Below the pieces are notes generated by a model. That model was not told the origin of the DNA. It ran no database searches and saw only the letters and a program-made list of their open reading frames with translations. DNA of 32,818 nt from Desulfuromonadaceae bacterium. GTDB lineage: Bacteria; Desulfobacterota; Desulfuromonadia; Desulfuromonadales; BM103. This document shows, piece by piece, positions 554 to 24,040 of the stretch (the first letter of the stretch is position 1; each line of letters starts with the position of its first letter). The stretch spans positions 1 to 32,818 of the forward strand of contig JBFYXI010000019.1 in assembly GCA_041310635.1 (NCBI GenBank). The letters are read 5' to 3'. The position numbers and the translations under genes are program-made.

Positions 554-2806
554 ATGTTTACCCAGGACGTCCAGATCGCCTTCTCCCTGGCGGTGCGCGA
601 AGCCCAGCGCCGCCGCCACGAATATCTGACCACCGAGCATGTCCTCTATGCCATCCTGTTCGAGGAAGCAGGGCAGGAAGTCGTGGCGGCCTGCGGCGGC
701 GATCCGGAACGTCTGCGCCAGGGGCTGGAGGAGTACTTTGCCCGGCATGTCGAGGCGCTGGAACTCAAGGAAGACCTTGTTCCGGAGCAGACCATCGGCC
801 TGCAGCGCATGCTGCAGCGCACCGTCGCCCACATGAATTCGGCGGGGAGAAAGGAGATCGGCATCGGTGACGTGCTGGCGGCAATCGCCGAGCAGGAGCA
901 TTCCCAGGCCGCCCAACTGCTGGTGGCGGAGGGGGTGACGCGTCTCGACATTCTCAATTTCGTCTCCCATGGGATTGTCAAGGCACCGCGCGCCGAGGCG
1001 ACTCCACAGCCGCTCCCCGATCCTGCCGAACAAACCAAACAGCCACCCAATGCCAAACCGGTAAGGCGCGCCGACCCCTTGGAGGCTTTCACTGTCAATC
1101 TCCTGGCGCGCGCCAGGGCAGGAAAAATCGACCCGTTGATCGGCCGTGCCGCCGAACTGGAGCGCACCATCCAGGTGCTCTGCCGGCGGCGCAAGAACAA
1201 TCCGGTGCTGGTCGGCGAGCCGGGGGTCGGCAAGACAGCCCTCGCCGAAGGGCTGGCGCTGCGCATCCGCGACGGCCAGGTGCCGGAACCGCTGCGTCAC
1301 GCCGAGTTGTTTGCCCTTGATATGGGGGCGCTGCTCGCCGGCACCAAATATCGCGGCGACTTCGAGGAGCGTCTCAAGGCGGTGGTCCAGGCTCTGGAGA
1401 AACGCCCGCAGGCGATCCTGGTCATCGACGAGATTCACACCCTGGTCGGCGCCGGCGCCACCAGCGGCGGGTCGCTGGATGCCGCCAATATCCTCAAGCC
1501 GATGCTCGCCACCGGCGAGCTGCGCTGCATCGGCTCGACCACCTACGAGGAGTACCGCAACCTCTTCGAGAAGGACCGGGCTCTCTCCCGGCGCTTCCAG
1601 AAAATCGACATCACCGAACCGAGCGTCGCCGAGACCATCGACATCCTGCGCGGCTTGAAAAAAGCCTACGAAGAATATCATGGCGTGCGCTACACCGCGG
1701 CGGCGCTGGAGGCGGCGGCCACCCTCTCCGCCCGGCACATCAACTACCGCCGGCTGCCGGACAAGGCGATCGACGTGCTCGACGAGGCCGGGGCGCGTCT
1801 GCGCCTCTATCCTCGGCCGAAACCGTTGATCGGCGTCGCCGACATCGAAGCGGTCGTCGCGGGGATGGCACGCATTCCGGCGCGCAAGCTGCCGCGGGCC
1901 GACCGCCACAAGCTCAAACAGCTCGATGCCGCCATCAAACGCCAGGTGTTCGGCCAGGACGAGGCCATCGACCGGCTCTGCCAGGCGATCCGCCGGGCCC
2001 GGGCCGGGCTCGGCCGCCCCGAAAAACCGACCGGCTGCTTCCTCTTCACCGGGCCGACCGGAGTCGGCAAGACCGAGGTGGCCAAACAGCTGGCCATGCA
2101 GATGGGCGTCGAGTTTTTGCGCTTCGATATGAGCGAATACATGGAGAAGCACTCGGTGGCCCGGCTGATCGGTTCGCCGCCCGGTTACGTCGGCTTCGAC
2201 CAGGGGGGGCTGCTGACCGATGCCGTGATGCGCAGCCCCTACGCGGTTTTGCTGCTCGACGAGGTCGAGAAGGCCCACCCCGATATTTACAACATCCTGC
2301 TGCAGGTGATGGATCACGGCACGCTCACCGACAACAGCGGCCGTGCTGCCGACTTCCGCAGCGTGGTGCTGATCATGACCAGCAATGTCGGCGCCCGCGA
2401 GATGAGCGGCACGCTGATCGGCTTCGGCCACCGGCCGCCGGGAGGCGCCGGTCAGGCGGTGGAACGGACCTTCTCCCCCGAGTTCCGCAACCGTCTCGAC
2501 GCGGTGATCGCCTTCCGCGCTCTCGACGAGACGGTCATGGCGCAGGTGGTCGACAAGTTCATCTCCCAGTTGCAGGAATCGCTGCATGAGCGCAAGGTCA
2601 CCCTCAGCCTTGCTCCGGCCGCCCGCGCCGATCTGGCCCGGCGCGGCTACGATCCGCTGTTCGGAGCCCGTCCGCTGGGCCGCCTGATCGAAGCCGAAAT
2701 CGGCAATGCGCTGGCCGATGAGATTCTGTTCGGACGCTTGAGCGGTGGTGGCCGGGTGCGCATCGGCCTGAAGGACGGGCGGCTGACGTTCAACTTCGGG
2801 GGCTAG
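554..2806 (+). CDS. clpA: ATP-dependent Clp protease ATP-binding subunit ClpA
   Basis: 750 aa. It has a Clp N-domain and two AAA+ modules with Walker A motifs GEPGVGKTA and GPTGVGKTE, and it lies next to clpS. Confidence 0.95.
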
Positions 2807-2880
2807 GGCCTGGGGTCTGGGGACTGGAAGAACCGAATGCGGAAGAGATTTTGCCAGCCCCCAGCAACCAGCCTCTAGCC
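2803..2880. repeat. Heptamer-phased imperfect palindrome: CTAGGGC CTGGGGT CTGGGGA CTGG, a spacer, then TTTTGCCAGCCCCCAGCAACCAGCCTCTAG
   Basis: The left arm (2803-2827) is largely complementary to the right arm (2855-2878). The first CTAG contains the clpA stop codon. The element shares the TTTTGCCAG motif with the other elements. Confidence 0.75.
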
Positions 2881-2889
2881 ACCGCTTTT

Positions 2890-3585
2890 ATGCCCATCTT
2901 CCGCCTGACCGACCAACTGGCCTTCCCCGATCCGCGACTGGCCAGCGCCGAGGGGTTGCTGGCGGTCGGCGGCGACCTCGCCCCGGAGCGCCTGCTGCTG
3001 GCCTACAGCCTCGGCATCTTCCCTTGGTACGGTCCTGGCGAGCCGCCCCTGTGGTGGTCCCCCGATCCCCGCTGCGTCATCTTCCCGGCGACGGTGCACG
3101 TGTCCCGGCGCCTGGCCCGGACCTTGCGGCAAGGGCGCTTTGCCGTCACGTGCAACCACGCCTTCGACGAGGTGATTGCGGCCTGCGCCGATCTCAGGGC
3201 TGGCCACGCCGGGGGAACCTGGCTGGTGCCGGAGATGCGAAGTGCCTACCGGGAGCTGCATCGGCTCGGCTACGCGCATTCGGTAGAGGTCTGGCGGCAC
3301 GGCCAGTTGGCCGGCGGGCTTTACGGCGTGGCGGTCGGCCGTTTTTTCTTCGGCGAATCGATGTTCCACCTCCTGACCGACGCCTCGAAGGTTGCTCTGG
3401 TCAAGCTTTGCCGGCACCTGACCGAGAGGGATTTCGAGCTGCTCGACTGCCAGGTGCCGAACCCGCACCTGCTGCGCATGGGGGCAAGGCTCCTGCCGCG
3501 CAGCGAATTCCTCGAGCGCCTGCACCGGGCCGGGCTGGCCCTGTCGGGCCGGCTGCCGCGACTGCTGCTGCCGGCAACCCTTTAG
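2890..3585 (+). CDS. aat: Leucyl/phenylalanyl-tRNA--protein transferase
   Basis: It carries the motifs GIFPWY and LWWSPDPR. The N-terminus from ATG 2890 (MPIFRLTDQLAFPDPR...) aligns with the known Aat start. The longer ORF from TTG 2851 would translate the repeat arm. Confidence 0.9.
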   Translation: MPIFRLTDQLAFPDPRLASAEGLLAVGGDLAPERLLLAYSLGIFPWYGPGEPPLWWSPDPRCVIFPATVHVSRRLARTLRQGRFAVTCNHAFDEVIAACADLRAGHAGGTWLVPEMRSAYRELHRLGYAHSVEVWRHGQLAGGLYGVAVGRFFFGESMFHLLTDASKVALVKLCRHLTERDFELLDCQVPNPHLLRMGARLLPRSEFLERLHRAGLALSGRLPRLLLPATL

Positions 3586-22655: not shown

Positions 22656-22729
22656 AAAATCTTTTACAGCATAGAGTTTTATGGGTCGGGTAAGACCCAT
22701 GGGACGTCTGCTGTTTGCAGGAGTTTGCC

Positions 22730-24003
22730 ATGCAAGTTCTGGTAATCGGCGGGGGTGGGCGCGAGCATGCGCTGGTCTGGAAGATCGCCCAGTCGCCGCT
22801 GGTCAAGAAGGTCTACTGCGCCCCCGGCAACCCCGGCACCGCACAACTGGCGGAAAATGTCGCGCTACAGGCTGACGACCTCGACGGCCTGCTGGCCTTC
22901 GCCAGGAGCGAAGCCATCGACCTCACCGTGGTCGGCCCGGAATTGCCGCTGTCTCTCGGCATCGTCGATCGCTTCGAGGAACAGGGGCTGACGATCTTCG
23001 GTGCCCGCCGCAGTGCGGCGATCATCGAGGCGAGCAAGGCTTTTGCCAAAAACCTGATGAAGAAATACCAGGTACCAACCGCCTTCTACGAGGTCTTCAC
23101 CGAGGTCGAGCCGGCCCTGGCCTACATTGACCAGCATGGCGCGCCGATCGTCGTCAAGGCAGACGGCCTTGCGGCCGGCAAGGGAGTGATCGTCGCCCGT
23201 AGCGTCGCGGAAGTCAGACGGCGGTGCGCGACATGCTCTCCGGCAACGCCTTCGGCGCGGCCGGCTCGCAGGTGGTCATCGAGGAGTTCTTGGACGGTGA
23301 GGAAGCCTCGTTTCTGGTCTTCACCGACGGGAAGAACATCATCCCTCTGGCCAGCGCCCAGGACCACAAGCCGGTCTTCGACGATGACCGAGGGCCGAAC
23401 ACCGGCGGCATGGGGGCCTACTCCCCGGCGCCGGTGGTCACCCCGGCCGTTCACGAACAAGCCATGCAACAGGTGCTGCGCCGGGCCATCGATGGCATGG
23501 CCGCAGAAGGGCGGCCTTATCGGGGCGTGCTCTATGCGGGGCTGATGATCAAGGGGGAGAGCGTCAAGACCCTCGAGTTCAATGCCCGTTTCGGCGATCC
23601 CGAGTGCCAGCCGCTGTTGATGCGCCTCAAGTCAGACCTGGTGCCGGTGCTGCTGGCCTGTGCCCGCGGCGATCTCTCCGGCATCGAACTGGATTGGCAT
23701 GACCAGGCGGCGGTCTGCGTGGTCATGGCCTCCGGCGGCTATCCCGGCGAGTTCGCCAAGGGTCTGCCGATCACCGGCCTCGAGCAGGCGGCGCAGATCG
23801 ATGATCTGGTGGTGTTCCATGCCGGCACCGCCGAACAGGGCGGGCAGATCGTCAACCACGGCGGCCGGGTTCTCGGCGTCACCGGTCGCGGGCCAACGGT
23901 GGCCGCTGCCATTGACAAGGCCTACCAGGGGGTGCGCGCCATTACCTGGGAGGGCGCACATTTTAGGACCGATATCGGCAGAAAGGCATTAACCAAGGGC
24001 TAG
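22730..24003 (+). pseudogene. purD: Phosphoribosylamine--glycine ligase (purD) with an apparent 1-nt deletion near 23212-23216
   Basis: The N-terminal part is MQVLVIGGGGREHAL...KADGLAAGKGVIVARSVAE, in the frame of 22730. The C-terminal part, (A)QTAVRDMLSGNAFGAAG...GGMGAYSP...RTDIGRKAL, continues in the frame of 23224. One extra base after GAAG would restore ...VAEAQTAVRDML. Confidence 0.85.
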
Positions 24004-24040
24004 AGGCTGGGGGCTGGTTTTGCCAGTCCCTAACCCCTAG
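24000..24040. repeat. Heptamer-phased hairpin: CTAGAGG CTGGGGG CTGG TTTTG CCAGTCC CTAACCC CTAG
   Basis: The arms at 24000-24017 and 24023-24040 are complementary at about 14/18 around the conserved GGTTTTGCCAG apex. The first CTAG contains the purD stop codon. Confidence 0.8.

What the first reader, a model, noticed from the sequence alone, without database searches (positions are those of the whole stretch)
2803..24040. Family of heptamer-phased, hairpin-forming intergenic elements in about a third of the spacers
At least eight intergenic spacers are largely filled by arrays of 7-nt units arranged as imperfect inverted arms. They lie at 2803-2880, 5886-5951, 10509-10710, 11895-11988, 15068-15258 (continuing at 13917-13930 on the far side of the IS630), 16582-16658, 20928-21061 and 24000-24040.

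Unit sequences differ between loci:
- CTGGTTG, CTGGTTT, CTTGGTT and CTAGTGT.
- CTGGGGN and CTAGAGG.
- CCTAGGA, TCTTGAA and CCTTGGA.
- ACAGAAT opposite CTGAATT.
- 8-mers CGCGGAGA and CGCAGAGA.

The architecture, however, is shared.
- Phasing is strict.
- Most units start with CT(G/A/T)G.
- An apex of the GGTTTTGCCAG type is present at 16635-16644 and 24015-24026. It occurs as TTTTGCCAG at 2850-2858, with an extra T and ending in CCC at 10575-10585, and as a reverse complement at 15091-15104.
- The termini contain CTAG, a tetranucleotide usually avoided in bacterial genomes.

The elements sit between co-directional operon genes as well as between convergent genes. This resembles REP/BIME- or MITE-like elements, but the element is built by microsatellite-like unit iteration. 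I cannot say whether it has been described for this lineage.
Basis: seen in the sequence. Interest (0 to 1): 0.8.

Follow-up and report, generated by a model that had tools for sequence, protein, structure and literature searches.

The report
Heptamer-repeat hairpins filling intergenic spacers
About a third of the gaps between genes in this Geobacter-like genome fragment hold hairpin-forming elements whose arms are short 7- or 8-base tandem repeats; they are real and far beyond chance, but the same families were catalogued in Geobacter metallireducens in 2009, and their function is still unknown.

Summary
The window has 7 period-7 runs in 3.4 kb of intergenic DNA, against 0.02 expected. Six of eight elements fold better than every shuffle as DNA hairpins. 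CTAG and TTTTGCC are concentrated in them.

It is not one family. There are at least three motif families:
- a CTGGNNN/NNNCCAG family with a CTGG-TTTTG-CCAG apex and CTAG-bearing ends (E1, E2, E5, E6, E8);
- an 8-mer family GCNGAGRC (E7 and the outer arms of E3);
- an ATTCTGA/CTCCTGA family (E4, plus an unlisted remnant at 9188-9259).

The last two match the class 2 and class 3 "putative global regulator binding sites" that Aklujkar et al. (2009) annotated in G. metallireducens. Window 11957-11984 is identical to Gmet_I301A over 28 bases.

In 1.34 Mb from about 90 related Desulfuromonadales loci, period-7 runs are 17 times the shuffle expectation. Orthologous spacers keep the architecture while the units change.

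Best reading: REP/BIME- or MITE-like dispersed hairpin repeats whose arms grow and shrink by slippage, and which attract IS elements. Here an IS630 sits in a CTAG unit. Mobility, any binding protein and any RNA role were not demonstrated.

Verdict: a new member of a known, uncharacterised kind.

The parts
2803..2878 (.). E1, CTGG-family hairpin between clpA and aat. Left arm is CTAGGGC CTGGGGT CTGGGGA CTGG (2803-2827). TTTTGCCAG is at 2849-2857. Right arm is CCAG CCCCCAG CAACCAG CCTCTAG (2854-2878). The clpA stop codon TAG (2804-2806) lies in the first CTAG unit.
   Evidence: (DNA fold z = -3.9)
5886..5951 (.). E2, CTGG-family element between the rpsU terminator and the conserved promoter-like sequence of fba. 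It reads CTAGTGT CTGGTTG ... (CCAGCAA)x3.6. It is absent from the orthologous spacer of the closest relative, L001.
   Evidence: (z = -2.2)
9188..9259 (.). A degenerate class-3-like hairpin between the HTH-cupin gene and the carboxynorspermidine dehydrogenase gene (CANSDH): CCAGAAT TCAGGAA ... TTCTGAA TTCCGGA ... CCTGAAT TCCGG.
   Evidence: z = -2.7. The L001 ortholog has ATTCTGCATCCTGAATTCTGTATTCTGA at the same place.
10509..10710 (.). E3, a nested element between CANSDH and the carboxynorspermidine decarboxylase gene (CANSDC). The outer arms are class-2 8-mers (GACGCGGA GACGCTGC GGCGCTGA from 10511; CTCCGCGC CTCTGCGC CTCTGCGT at 10684-10707). The interior has GGTTTTTGCC at 10575-10584 and a CCTAGGA/TCTTGAA array at 10584-10665.
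   Evidence: (z = -5.6). Class-2 hairpins sit in the same spacer in L012, L013, L014 and L017 and L009.
11894..11988 (.). E4, class-3 element between CANSDC and speA. It has (TACAGAA)x4.3 at 11894-11923, a central hairpin at 11933-11959, and ATTCTGA ATTCTGA CTCCTGA ATTCTGT at 11957-11984.
   Evidence: z = -8.1; 28 of 28 identical to Gmet_I301A
13923..13932 (.). Distal piece of the E5 left arm, CTAGTGT C-TA, cut off by the IS630 insertion.
13933..15064 (+). IS630-family insertion sequence (transposase ORF 13994-15067). It is inserted at the TA of a CTAG unit of E5. TA is duplicated at 13931-13932 and 15065-15066.
   Evidence: (DDE_3 and HTH domains)
15067..15258 (.). E5 main body, between convergent speA and thiC. 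It reads GACG CTGGTTG CTGGTTG CGGTTG CTGG-CAAAACC, then a two-way terminator-like hairpin at 15112-15148, then (CAGCAAC)x13.4 at 15163-15256. CAGCCCC units run on into the last codons of thiC (15261-15275).
   Evidence: (z = -8.4)
16582..16658 (.). E6, CTGG-family element between thiDE and thiC (minus-strand operon). About 8 CTGGTTT-type units are followed by the apex CTGGTTTTGCCAG (16632-16644), then CAACCAG TAACTAG. The thiDE stop codon (complement of 16655-16657) lies in the terminal CTAG.
   Evidence: (z = -2.4)
20928..21061 (.). E7, class-2 (8-mer) hairpin between the RACo-family gene and purH. The arms are at 20929-20952 and 21045-21060. The interior is not periodic.
   Evidence: (z = -5.5). 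Class-2 hairpins sit in the same spacer in L012, L014, L042, L045, L064 and L078.
24000..24040 (.). E8, a minimal CTGG-family element between purD and purE: CTAGAGG CTGGGGG CTGG-TTTTG-CCAG TCCCTAA CCCCTAG. The purD stop codon TAG (24001-24003) lies in the first CTAG.
   Evidence: (z = -0.8, not significant on its own)

Best explanation
The elements belong to a small set of dispersed, REP/BIME- or MITE-like intergenic hairpin repeats. These are characteristic of Geobacter-like Desulfuromonadales and were already catalogued in G. metallireducens as paired tandem-repeat sites of classes 1-3.

Each element is a pair of inverted arms, and each arm is a tandem array of a family-specific 7- or 8-base motif: CTGGNNN, ATTCTGA/CTCCTGA or GCNGAGRC.

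**Shown**
- The motif families recur at non-orthologous sites and across genera, so copies are spread, or specifically kept, rather than invented at each site.
- Unit number and the variable positions of the units change quickly and independently in the two arms.
- The elements fill transcribed spacers downstream of stop codons, often supplying the stop codon itself.
- They are where the genome's rare CTAG sites are found.
- One CTAG unit has received an IS630.

**Inferred**
- The arms expand and contract by slipped-strand mispairing, as proposed for heptanucleotide simple repeats in general.
- The inverted arrangement is kept because the element is copied or recognised as a hairpin or as a paired site.
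- The elements are largely selfish or neutral passengers. Their side effects are extra stem-loops in mRNA or DNA and landing pads for insertion sequences. They are probably not dedicated regulators.
For: **Periodicity far above chance**
- Window: 7 intergenic runs against 0.017 expected.
- Relatives: 71 period-7 runs against 4.2 in shuffles, and 27 period-8 runs against 4.9, in 1.34 Mb.

**Hairpin potential**
-.

**Family-level sequence identity**
- Window 11957-11984 equals Gmet_I301A over 28 of 28 bases, with the same order of units as other G. metallireducens class 3 sites.
- The class 2 motif is in the window and in 11 further loci, often as inverted pairs.
- The CTGG family is in the window five times and in L008, L009 and L019.
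- TGGTTTTGCCAGCAACC (17 bases) is shared by E5 and E6.
- The apex motif is enriched in the elements.

**Dispersal within one genome**
- L014 has 4 copies at 83-85% identity over about 86-125 bases, and 95% over 222 bases for one pair, all within 20 kb.

**Slippage-type dynamics**
- (CAGCAAC)x13.4 is a perfect array.
- Arms are unequal: E5 has about 6 units against 13, E6 about 8 against 3, and E7 has 3 against 2 8-mers.
- Orthologous speA/thiC, purD/purE and thiC-upstream spacers carry arrays with different units in different species.

**Insertion sequences**
- An IS630 sits in a CTAG unit here.
- In G. metallireducens, IS110-family and IS481-family elements (ISGme8 and ISGme9) sit beside class 1 arms.
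- L019 has a roughly 860-base insertion with inverted ends in the terminator loop of the same spacer.

**Spacer type**
- Elements are in 0 of 4 divergent, 1 of 3 convergent and 7-8 of 14 co-directional spacers (gene map).

**Literature**
- G. bemidjiensis has multicopy sequences in 12% of its intergenic regions.
- Heptanucleotide repeats are the most abundant long simple repeats in many bacteria, and slippage has been proposed for them.
Against: - No insertion event was caught. The one filled-versus-empty comparison (E2 against L001) has no clean boundaries or target duplication.
- No genome of the same species was found, so unit-number polymorphism is untested.
- No mobilising gene was identified. 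The ends of the IS630 do not resemble the element arms.
- Within the window the interiors of E3 and E7 differ, so only the arms are conserved. That fits paired protein-binding sites as well as it fits mobile elements.
- Different units at orthologous spacers could mean that arrays arise in place.
- Any effect on transcripts is unmeasured.
Confidence: 0.5

Rival explanations
1. These are purely local simple-sequence repeats. Each array arose in place by polymerase slippage on a chance 7-base duplication next to an existing hairpin such as a terminator. Template switching across the hairpin copied one arm onto the other. There is no dispersal and no function.
For: - Orthologous spacers have the same architecture with different units. 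Examples around a conserved terminator between speA and thiC: GGGACGN in L017, GTGGCGN in L013 and L005, CTGGNNN in the window, L008 and L019.
- Upstream of thiC at least seven species have seven different units.
- One arm has a perfect long array, and the arms are unequal.
- Heptamers are the commonest long simple repeats in many bacteria, and inverted pairs are also seen in Xanthomonas.
Against: - A 28-base arm with the same order of non-identical units occurs in G. metallireducens and in the window, at unrelated loci.
- The non-repetitive apex CTGG-TTTTG-CCAG is shared by several elements.
- L014 has 4 copies that include non-repetitive interior sequence.
- The same few motif families recur across genera.
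Confidence: 0.2
2. These are paired arrays of binding sites for one or more DNA-binding proteins, either nucleoid-associated (IHF/HU-type) or other global regulators, as Aklujkar et al. proposed. Each 7- or 8-base unit is one contact. The inverted pairs bracket a bent or looped segment.
For: - What is conserved is the motif core (CTGG, CTGA, GC-GAG-C). The variable positions are not matched between the arms, and unit numbers differ.
- Spacing between the arms and the interior sequence both vary.
- Stability is not biased toward the sense RNA strand.
- The authors of the G. metallireducens paper favoured this reading.
Against: - At least 3-4 unrelated motif families in one 33-kb window, and about 56 canonical heptamer units among 71 arrays in relatives, would need many proteins.
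- The E. coli-type IHF consensus WATCAANNNNTTR does not occur anywhere in the window.
- The elements avoid the four divergent, promoter-containing spacers and sit after stop codons.
- A 7-8 bp spacing does not match the DNA helical repeat (general knowledge).
- No binding has ever been tested.
Confidence: 0.15
3. These are RNA-level elements. The long stem-loops in polycistronic transcripts would act as 3'-end protectors or terminator extensions, as RNase III/E processing sites that uncouple cistrons, or as modulators of the downstream ribosome-binding site.
For: - All elements lie in transcribed spacers, starting at or near the upstream stop codon and ending near the downstream ribosome-binding site.
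- The E5 arms flank a terminator-like hairpin.
- Class 3 arrays often sit directly upstream of a Shine-Dalgarno sequence and contain CTCC or, on the other strand, AGGAG.
- A translational role was proposed for the TAACTGA heptamer repeats of Beggiatoaceae.
Against: - The sense strand is not more stable than the antisense strand. In 5 of 7 operon elements the antisense RNA folds better.
- Only the core of E5 has a T-tract terminator.
- There is no Rfam match.
- Excess unpaired units in one arm and the rapid turnover of units argue against a tuned RNA structure.
Confidence: 0.15

Closest known systems
Paired tandem-repeat 'putative global regulator binding sites', classes 1-3, of Geobacter metallireducens (Aklujkar et al. 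2009, BMC Microbiol 9:109, PMC2700814)
   Same: - The architecture is the same: two sites on opposite strands at a variable distance, each made of 3-5 tandem 7- or 8-base units, mostly intergenic.
- Class 3 (MTYCTGA) is identical in sequence to the E4 arm.
- Class 2 (TCTCCGTS) matches the arms of E3 and E7.
- The class 1 motif GTTGCT is the complement of the CAGCAAC unit.
- Insertion sequences are found at the sites.
   Different: - The unit here is GTTGCTG with period 7, where class 1 is described as the octamer GTTGCTYN.
- The CTGG-family features (CTGG-TTTTG-CCAG apex, GGG/TTT variable triplets, CTAG ends) are not mentioned in the parts of the paper and supplements that I could read.
- The insertion sequence here is IS630, not IS110 or IS481.
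- The arrays are longer, up to 13 units.
- The host is an uncultured, higher-G+C relative.
Heptanucleotide long simple-sequence repeats of bacteria (Mrazek et al. 2007, as summarised in PMC4679880 and PMC4692102). Examples: Xanthomonas GGGAATC, Nostoc GGGGAYT, Beggiatoaceae TAACTGA, and (recalled, not checked here) cyanobacterial STRR repeats
   Same: - 7-base tandem arrays that are strongly over-represented in intergenic DNA.
- Unit number and sequence vary between close relatives at the same locus.
- Some Xanthomonas repeats occur as inverted pairs.
- Some arrays abut start codons.
   Different: - Those genomes are dominated by one unit, whereas several unrelated unit families coexist here.
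- The inverted-arm arrangement is the rule here, not the exception.
- The units here are not G-quadruplex-forming.
REP / BIME / REPIN elements (REP doublets mobilised by RAYT transposases)
   Same: - High-density intergenic hairpin repeats.
- Inverted doublets with a less conserved spacer.
- Mosaic clusters, as in L014.
- Location after stop codons in co-directional and convergent spacers.
- Use as targets by insertion sequences.
   Different: - Each arm is a tandem array, not a short palindrome of its own.
- There is no GTAG tag anywhere in the elements. CGTC occurs only as part of the class 2 unit, not as an unpaired tag next to an 8-9 bp stem.
- No RAYT gene is known here.
Bacterial MITEs, for example Chunjie of Geobacter uraniireducens and the Correia elements of Neisseria
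   Same: - Terminal inverted repeats.
- A small size of 40-200 bases.
- Insertion inside operons without breaking them.
- Multi-copy, with a conserved interior in at least one relative (L014).
- CTAG at both ends would fit a TA duplication.
   Different: - No target duplication or empty site was demonstrated.
- The arms are iterated units of variable number.
- No parent insertion sequence has matching ends.
- Chunjie is A+T-rich, 178-235 bp, with 21-bp inverted ends and 9-bp direct repeats, which is not this.

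Membership tests
G. metallireducens class 3 paired sites (Aklujkar 2009) | About five tandem heptamers with consensus MTYCTGA | tested here: met
   Window 11957-11984, ATTCTGAATTCTGACTCCTGAATTCTGT, is identical to Gmet_I301A. The left arm is (ACAGAAT)x4, the complement of ATTCTGT.
G. metallireducens class 3 paired sites (Aklujkar 2009) | Two sites on opposite strands at a variable distance, in intergenic DNA | tested here: met
   The arms are at 11894-11923 and 11957-11988, between the carboxynorspermidine decarboxylase gene (CANSDC) and speA. Pairs in G. 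metallireducens are about 70-115 bases apart.
G. metallireducens class 2 paired sites | Three tandem repeats with consensus TCTCCGTS[Y], paired on opposite strands | tested here: met
   E3 right arm: CTCCGCGC CTCTGCGC CTCTGCGT. E7: CTCCGCGT CTCTGCGT CTCCGTGT on the minus strand and CTCTGCGT CTCCGCGT on the plus strand. The G. metallireducens alignment itself (Fig. S4) was not available as text, so only the published consensus was compared.
G. metallireducens class 1 paired sites | Four tandem octanucleotides with consensus GTTGCTYN, paired | tested here: inconclusive
   The motif GTTGCT is present as (GTTGCTG)n on the minus strand at 5934-5948 and 15176-15253, but with period 7, not 8. Fig. 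S3 is not held as text.
G. metallireducens class 1 paired sites | IS elements inserted at a fixed distance from the sites | tested here: inconclusive
   One IS630 is inserted inside the E5 left arm at a CTAG. A single case, from a different IS family than ISGme8 and ISGme9.
Long simple-sequence repeats (5-11 base units) | Tandem arrays longer and more frequent than composition predicts | tested here: met
REP / REPIN | Each unit is a short imperfect palindrome (20-40 bases) with a conserved unpaired GTAG or CGTC tag | tested here: not met
   There is no GTAG or CTAC in any element. CGTC and GACG occur only inside class 2 units. The single arms are direct repeats, not palindromes.
REP / REPIN | A cognate RAYT (IS200/IS605-like tyrosine transposase) in the genome | not testable with these tools
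   Only a 33-kb window is available and no genome of the same species was found. None of the ORFs I scanned in the window has this domain.
REP / REPIN | Inverted doublets in extragenic space, many copies per genome | tested here: inconclusive
   Inverted doublets and a high local density were seen: 9 spacers in 33 kb, and 5 or more class 2 copies in the 20 kb of L014. The genome-wide copy number is unknown.
MITE | Terminal inverted repeats | tested here: met
   Inverted arms are present in all elements.
MITE | Target-site duplication, and empty sites in relatives | tested here: inconclusive
   E1 and E8 are bracketed by CTAG...CTAG, and E6 has an inner CTAG pair. This would fit a TA duplication. 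The E2 against L001 comparison gives no clean boundary.
MITE | A related autonomous IS with matching ends | tested here: not met
   The IS630 ends GTTGCAAAATTAAACG and ATTGCTAAAGTTTTCG do not resemble any arm. The ends of the IS256-family element were not examined.
Intrinsic terminator | A G+C-rich stem followed by a T-run | tested here: not met
   Only the core of E5 (15112-15148) qualifies; the central stem of E4 (11933-11959) qualifies only on the strand antisense to its flanking genes. The other elements lack a T-tract.
Rfam RNA families | A covariance-model match | tested here: not met
   The only credible match in the window is the TPP riboswitch at 18157-18266, minus strand.

The most novel reading that the evidence does not exclude
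The CTGG, class 2 and class 3 families could form a distinct kind of non-autonomous mobile hairpin element. Its arms would be iterated recognition heptamers or octamers for an as yet unidentified enzyme. That enzyme would be neither a RAYT nor the IS630 seen here.

Such elements would insert at TA in CTAG, right after stop codons, spread between genera (copies also sit on contigs classified as viral), and then remodel themselves by slippage.

If so, they would be a REPIN-like system of Desulfuromonadales with a new mode of end recognition. It would also explain why inverted heptamer arrays recur in unrelated bacteria.
Probability: 0.15. Interest if true: 0.7.

Novelty: new member of a known kind. 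Interest (0 to 1): 0.35.

Why it matters
These repeats take up about a third of the spacers in this window, and multicopy sequences occupy roughly an eighth of the intergenic regions in G. bemidjiensis. Yet nothing is known about what makes them or what they do.

Two results here sharpen the question:
- The same arm sequence survives unchanged between genera at unrelated loci, which argues for copying or specific recognition.
- Orthologous spacers keep the arrangement of 'tandem-repeat arms around a hairpin' while the unit changes, which argues for a generating process.

Both can be tested in cultured, genetically tractable Geobacter species.

There are also practical consequences:
- The arrays break short-read assemblies. 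The independent contig L211 ends in arrays on both sides.
- They supply stop codons and C-terminal residues to neighbouring genes.
- They hold nearly all the CTAG sites, which are reported, from my recollection of the IS630 literature, to be that family's preferred target.

Tried and rejected
- **Metagenome scan with the apex pattern** CTGGTTTTGCCAGNNNCCAG. All 120 returned hits look like ordinary gene-interior sequence, many matching the complement of a Walker-A codon string (GAGKTS); frames were not checked. None has the repeat architecture.
- **Exact-protein look-ups** to find the same species, using ThiC, the carboxynorspermidine dehydrogenase and PurE. Nothing was found. RpsU gave only genus-level relatives. 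The IS630 transposase gave one 1.3-kb contig of the same locus. Unit-number polymorphism could therefore not be tested.
- **Chi-site idea.** GCTGGTTG, GCTGGGGG and GCTGGAGG resemble E. coli and Haemophilus Chi sites, and the arms point the right way around the hairpin. However, GCTGGTGG-like octamers are not over-represented in 1.37 Mb (z between -1.0 and +0.8). Dropped as unsupported.
- **IHF consensus** WATCAANNNNTTR: zero matches in the window.
- **Sense against antisense RNA stability**, as a test for selection at the RNA level: no bias.
- **Classing arrays in relatives as coding or intergenic by stop-to-stop ORFs** failed, because spurious long ORFs are common in high-G+C DNA. The exact 8-mer partner test had a 22% background. 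Both were discarded.
- **A position-by-position covariation test on the class 2 arms** was confounded, because the arms can be aligned in several registers 8 bases apart. Only the qualitative result is used: unit counts are unequal, and the variable positions are not matched between arms.
- **Rfam:** no family matched.
- **GTAG/CGTC-tagged REP membership:** rejected.
- **The Chunjie MITE paper** could not be read. The comparison rests on a review.

Full report
**Context**

The window is a 63% G+C fragment of an uncultured Desulfuromonadales (Geobacter-like) genome. I built the gene map from codon-position G+C and Pfam.

| Coordinates | Strand | Gene |
|---|---|---|
| 234-548 | + | clpS |
| 554-2806 | + | clpA |
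| about 2889-3585 | + | aat |
| 3651-4226 | - | cytochrome c7 |
| 4381-5511 | + | rlmL |
| 5604-5798 | + | rpsU |
| 6038-7012 | + | fba |
| 7131-8537 | - | ChaN-PDZ protein |
| 8638-9183 | + | HTH-cupin regulator |
| 9293-10492 | + | carboxynorspermidine dehydrogenase (CANSDH) |
| 10727-11881 | + | carboxynorspermidine decarboxylase (CANSDC) |
| 12007-13914 | + | speA |
| 13994-15067 | + | IS630 transposase |
| 15260-16573 | - | thiC |
| 16655-18100 | - | thiDE |
| 18335-19600 | + | alr |
| 19597-20916 | + | RACo-family gene |
| about 21092-22655 | + | purH |
| 22715-24003 | + | purD |
| 24072-24593 | + | purE |
| 24758-26128 | + | resB |
| 26159-27010 | + | ccsA |

Further genes follow. The closest public relatives have 92-94% identical ThiC and are metagenome-assembled genomes. 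The source genome itself was not found.

Yes.
- TRF finds period-7 or period-14 arrays at every listed locus except 20928-21061 and 24000-24040, and period-8 arrays at 10683-10706 and 20934-20953.
- With a fixed rule, the 3.36 kb of intergenic DNA holds 7 period-7 runs against 0.017 in dinucleotide shuffles. No other period from 4 to 11 gives an intergenic run, except period 8, which gives 2.
- Folded as single-stranded DNA, six of the eight elements beat all 200 shuffles (z from -3.9 to -8.4). Two are marginal (z = -2.2 and -2.4). The smallest, E8, is not significant.
TTTTGCCAG occurs four times in the window and only in the elements. TTTTGCC is enriched there (5 of 10 occurrences in 3.3% of the sequence, P = 9e-6).
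- CTAG is strongly avoided in the window: 17 observed against 28-112 expected. 12 of the 17 lie in the elements.
- The IS630 is bounded by TA duplications inside a CTAG. Removing it restores CTAGTGT CTAGACG CTGGTTG in phase. The claim that the array continues across the IS is therefore correct.

Corrections:
- E7 and the outer arms of E3 are 8-mers.
- Phasing has 6- and 8-base exceptions.
- A ninth, degenerate element lies at 9188-9259.

**How many families?**

Reading the units in register shows at least three families.

1. *The CTGG family (E1, E2, E5, E6, E8).*
   - Left arms are CTGGNNN and right arms NNNCCAG.
   - The variable triplet is mostly GGG/CCC or GTT/TTT/AAC.
   - The apex is CTGG-TTTTG-CCAG, and the outer units have CTAG in place of CTGG.
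   - E5 and E6 share 17 identical bases across the apex.
   - The same family occurs in L009 (apex CTGGCAAAAAACCAG), L008 and L019.
2. *An 8-mer family, GCNGAGRC with ends TT(C/G)AACGC...GCGTT(G/C)AA (E7 and the outer arms of E3).*
3. *ATTCTGA/CTCCTGA (E4 and the remnant at 9188-9259).*

The interior of E3 (CCTAGGA/TCTTGAA) resembles the TTCAAGG/TTCTAGG arrays of L032 and L035 and may be a fourth.

**Already described**

Aklujkar et al. (2009, PMC2700814) hand-curated G. metallireducens and annotated the following:
- 24 pairs of class 1 sites (tandem GTTGCTYN);
- 21 pairs of class 2 (TCTCCGTS[Y] x3);
- 8 pairs of class 3 (MTYCTGA x5).

Each pair lies on opposite strands at a variable distance. 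The authors proposed that they bind unidentified IHF/HU-type global regulators.

Their Figure S5 gives the class 3 sequences. Gmet_I301A reads ...ATTCTGAATTCTGACTCCTGAATTCTGT, identical to window 11957-11984. Most other copies have the same order of non-identical units.

Their Table S4 shows that many class 1 sites adjoin an ISGme8 (IS110 family) or ISGme9 (IS481 family) transposase gene.

The G. bemidjiensis paper reports multicopy palindromic or direct-repeat families in 12% of intergenic regions.

More generally:
- Heptanucleotide repeats are the most abundant long simple repeats in many bacteria, and polymerase slippage has been proposed as their cause.
- Inverted pairs of heptamer arrays were noted in Xanthomonas.

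**Relatives**

In 1.34 Mb around thiC or rpsU from about 90 Desulfuromonadales/Geobacterales loci:

| Period | Runs observed | Mean in shuffles |
|---|---|---|
| 7 | 71 | 4.2 |
| 8 | 27 | 4.9 |
| 5 | 3 | 5.9 |

The window is about five times denser than this average.

Orthologous spacers are the most informative result.
- *CANSDH-CANSDC spacer.* It carries a class 2 hairpin in the window, L009, L012, L013, L014 and L017. The arms are conserved and the interiors are unrelated.
- *Convergent speA/thiC spacer.* It has a recognisably orthologous terminator hairpin flanked by heptamer arrays. The unit differs between species: CTGGNNN in the window, L008 and L019; GGGACGN in L017 and L007; GTGGCGN in L013 and L005.
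- *purD-purE and RACo-purH spacers.* They range from 0-30 bases (empty) to more than 200 bases filled with class 2-like, AAAAGGT/GTGAAAN or GGGACGN hairpins.
- *Closest relative, L001.* It lacks E2 altogether.
- *L014.* It has four copies of a composite class 2 element within 20 kb, 83-95% identical including non-repetitive parts.
- *Contigs classified as viral.* Class 3 and class 2 elements also occur on five of them.

**What the anatomy says about mechanism**

- *Dispersal or specific retention.* Identical arms and shared non-repetitive apices occur at unrelated loci and in different genera, and L014 has multicopy composites.
- *Slippage.* One arm holds a perfect 13-unit array. Unit numbers are often very unequal between arms: about 6 against 13 in E5, about 8 against 3 in E6, and 3 against 2 in E7. 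The variable positions of units are not matched between the two arms. The hairpin is therefore not finely maintained base by base.
- *No sign of selection on the transcribed strand.* In 5 of 7 operon elements the antisense RNA folds better than the sense RNA. There is no Rfam match. Only the core of E5 looks like a terminator.
- *Placement.* The elements are in 0 of 4 divergent spacers, and always downstream of a stop codon.
  - The stop codons of clpA, purD and thiDE lie inside the terminal CTAG unit.
  - The last residues of ThiC are encoded by CAGCCCC units.
  - This is what one expects if elements land or grow at gene ends, and any unit can supply a stop in all three frames.
- *Insertion sequences use them.* This is seen. 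IS elements targeting REP sequences, for example ISPpu9 of the IS110 family, are described in abstracts listed.

**Conclusion and rivals**

I favour dispersed REP/BIME- or MITE-like hairpin repeats remodelled by slippage (confidence about 0.5).

Rivals that remain open:
- origin purely in place by slippage plus template switching (0.2);
- paired protein-binding arrays, as originally proposed (0.15);
- dedicated RNA structures (0.15).

These readings are not mutually exclusive. None of the functional claims has experimental support in any species.

Membership in the tagged REP families is rejected. Membership in the G. metallireducens classes 2 and 3 is met. Class 1 is only partly met, because the motif is the same but the period differs.

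**Verdict**

This is a correct and careful observation of a real, statistically overwhelming feature. It is a new instance, in an uncultured relative, of a repeat system catalogued but never explained in Geobacter genomes. The cross-genus identity of the arms, together with the change of units at orthologous sites, is worth following up in a cultured species. Nothing here requires a new kind of element.

Noticed in passing
window 22715-24003: purD is split into two overlapping reading frames, 22715-23545 (GARS_N plus GARS_A positions 1-64) and 23224-24003 (GARS_A 68-194 plus GARS_C). This implies a frameshift near 23219-23227, from either a pseudogene or an assembly error.
   Followed up: partly
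The L001 ortholog has an ATTCTGN array at the same place.
   Followed up: yes
window 19624-19646 and 20126-20156: Two heptamer runs (AGCCCCC and CCCCTCA) lie inside the RACo-family gene. The second encodes a Pro-rich linker between the two Pfam domains. G. metallireducens and G. bemidjiensis are also reported to have repeat families inside genes.
   Followed up: partly
window 15260-15275: The last codons of thiC (GLGA, then stop) are encoded by two CAGCCCC units that continue the E5 array. ThiC relatives align only to residue 426-435 of 437.
   Followed up: partly
window 18157-18266 (minus strand): A TPP riboswitch (Rfam RF00059, 81.7 bits) lies upstream of thiDE. In many relatives heptamer arrays sit just upstream of the thiC start codon, beside sequence I took, without testing, to be a TPP riboswitch.
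   Followed up: partly
window 30258-31415: A second insertion sequence, with an IS256/Mutator-family transposase, lies directly after mgtE. Its ends and target were not examined.
   Followed up: no
window 5953-5990; L001, L017 and L021 orthologs: The conserved block CTGGACTTG...CTGGTAT(G/T)AA lies immediately after E2. It looks like the fba promoter, so E2 sits exactly between the rpsU terminator and this block.
   Followed up: partly
L014 2234-2359, 4009-4189, 12418-12598, 15271-15450: Four copies of a composite repeat lie within 20 kb. Its order is a (TCGTTGAA)n array, then GGGCAAAACCA, then a class 2 hairpin, then TTTATCC-type heptamers. The copies are 83-95% identical. It is a BIME-like mosaic.
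   Followed up: partly
L019 2140-3137: An insertion of about 860 bases with inverted ends CGTTCACCTAAAGTGTGCAAAAG sits in the loop of the speA/thiC terminator hairpin, next to a CTGG-family array.
   Followed up: no
L212-L216 (IMG/VR contigs): Class 3 arms (4 contigs) and a perfect class 2 hairpin (1 contig) occur on contigs classified as viral, with G+C of 0.56-0.64. In L212 and L215 the complement of the array (TCAGGAG...) supplies a Shine-Dalgarno-like sequence 11 bases before a start codon.
   Followed up: partly
L211 (Logan SRR28346269 contig, 1268 bases): An independent assembly of the same IS630 locus. The contig starts in the CTAGTGT units and ends in the (CAGCAAC) array. The arrays therefore break short-read assembly, and the source organism is present in that read set.
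   Followed up: partly
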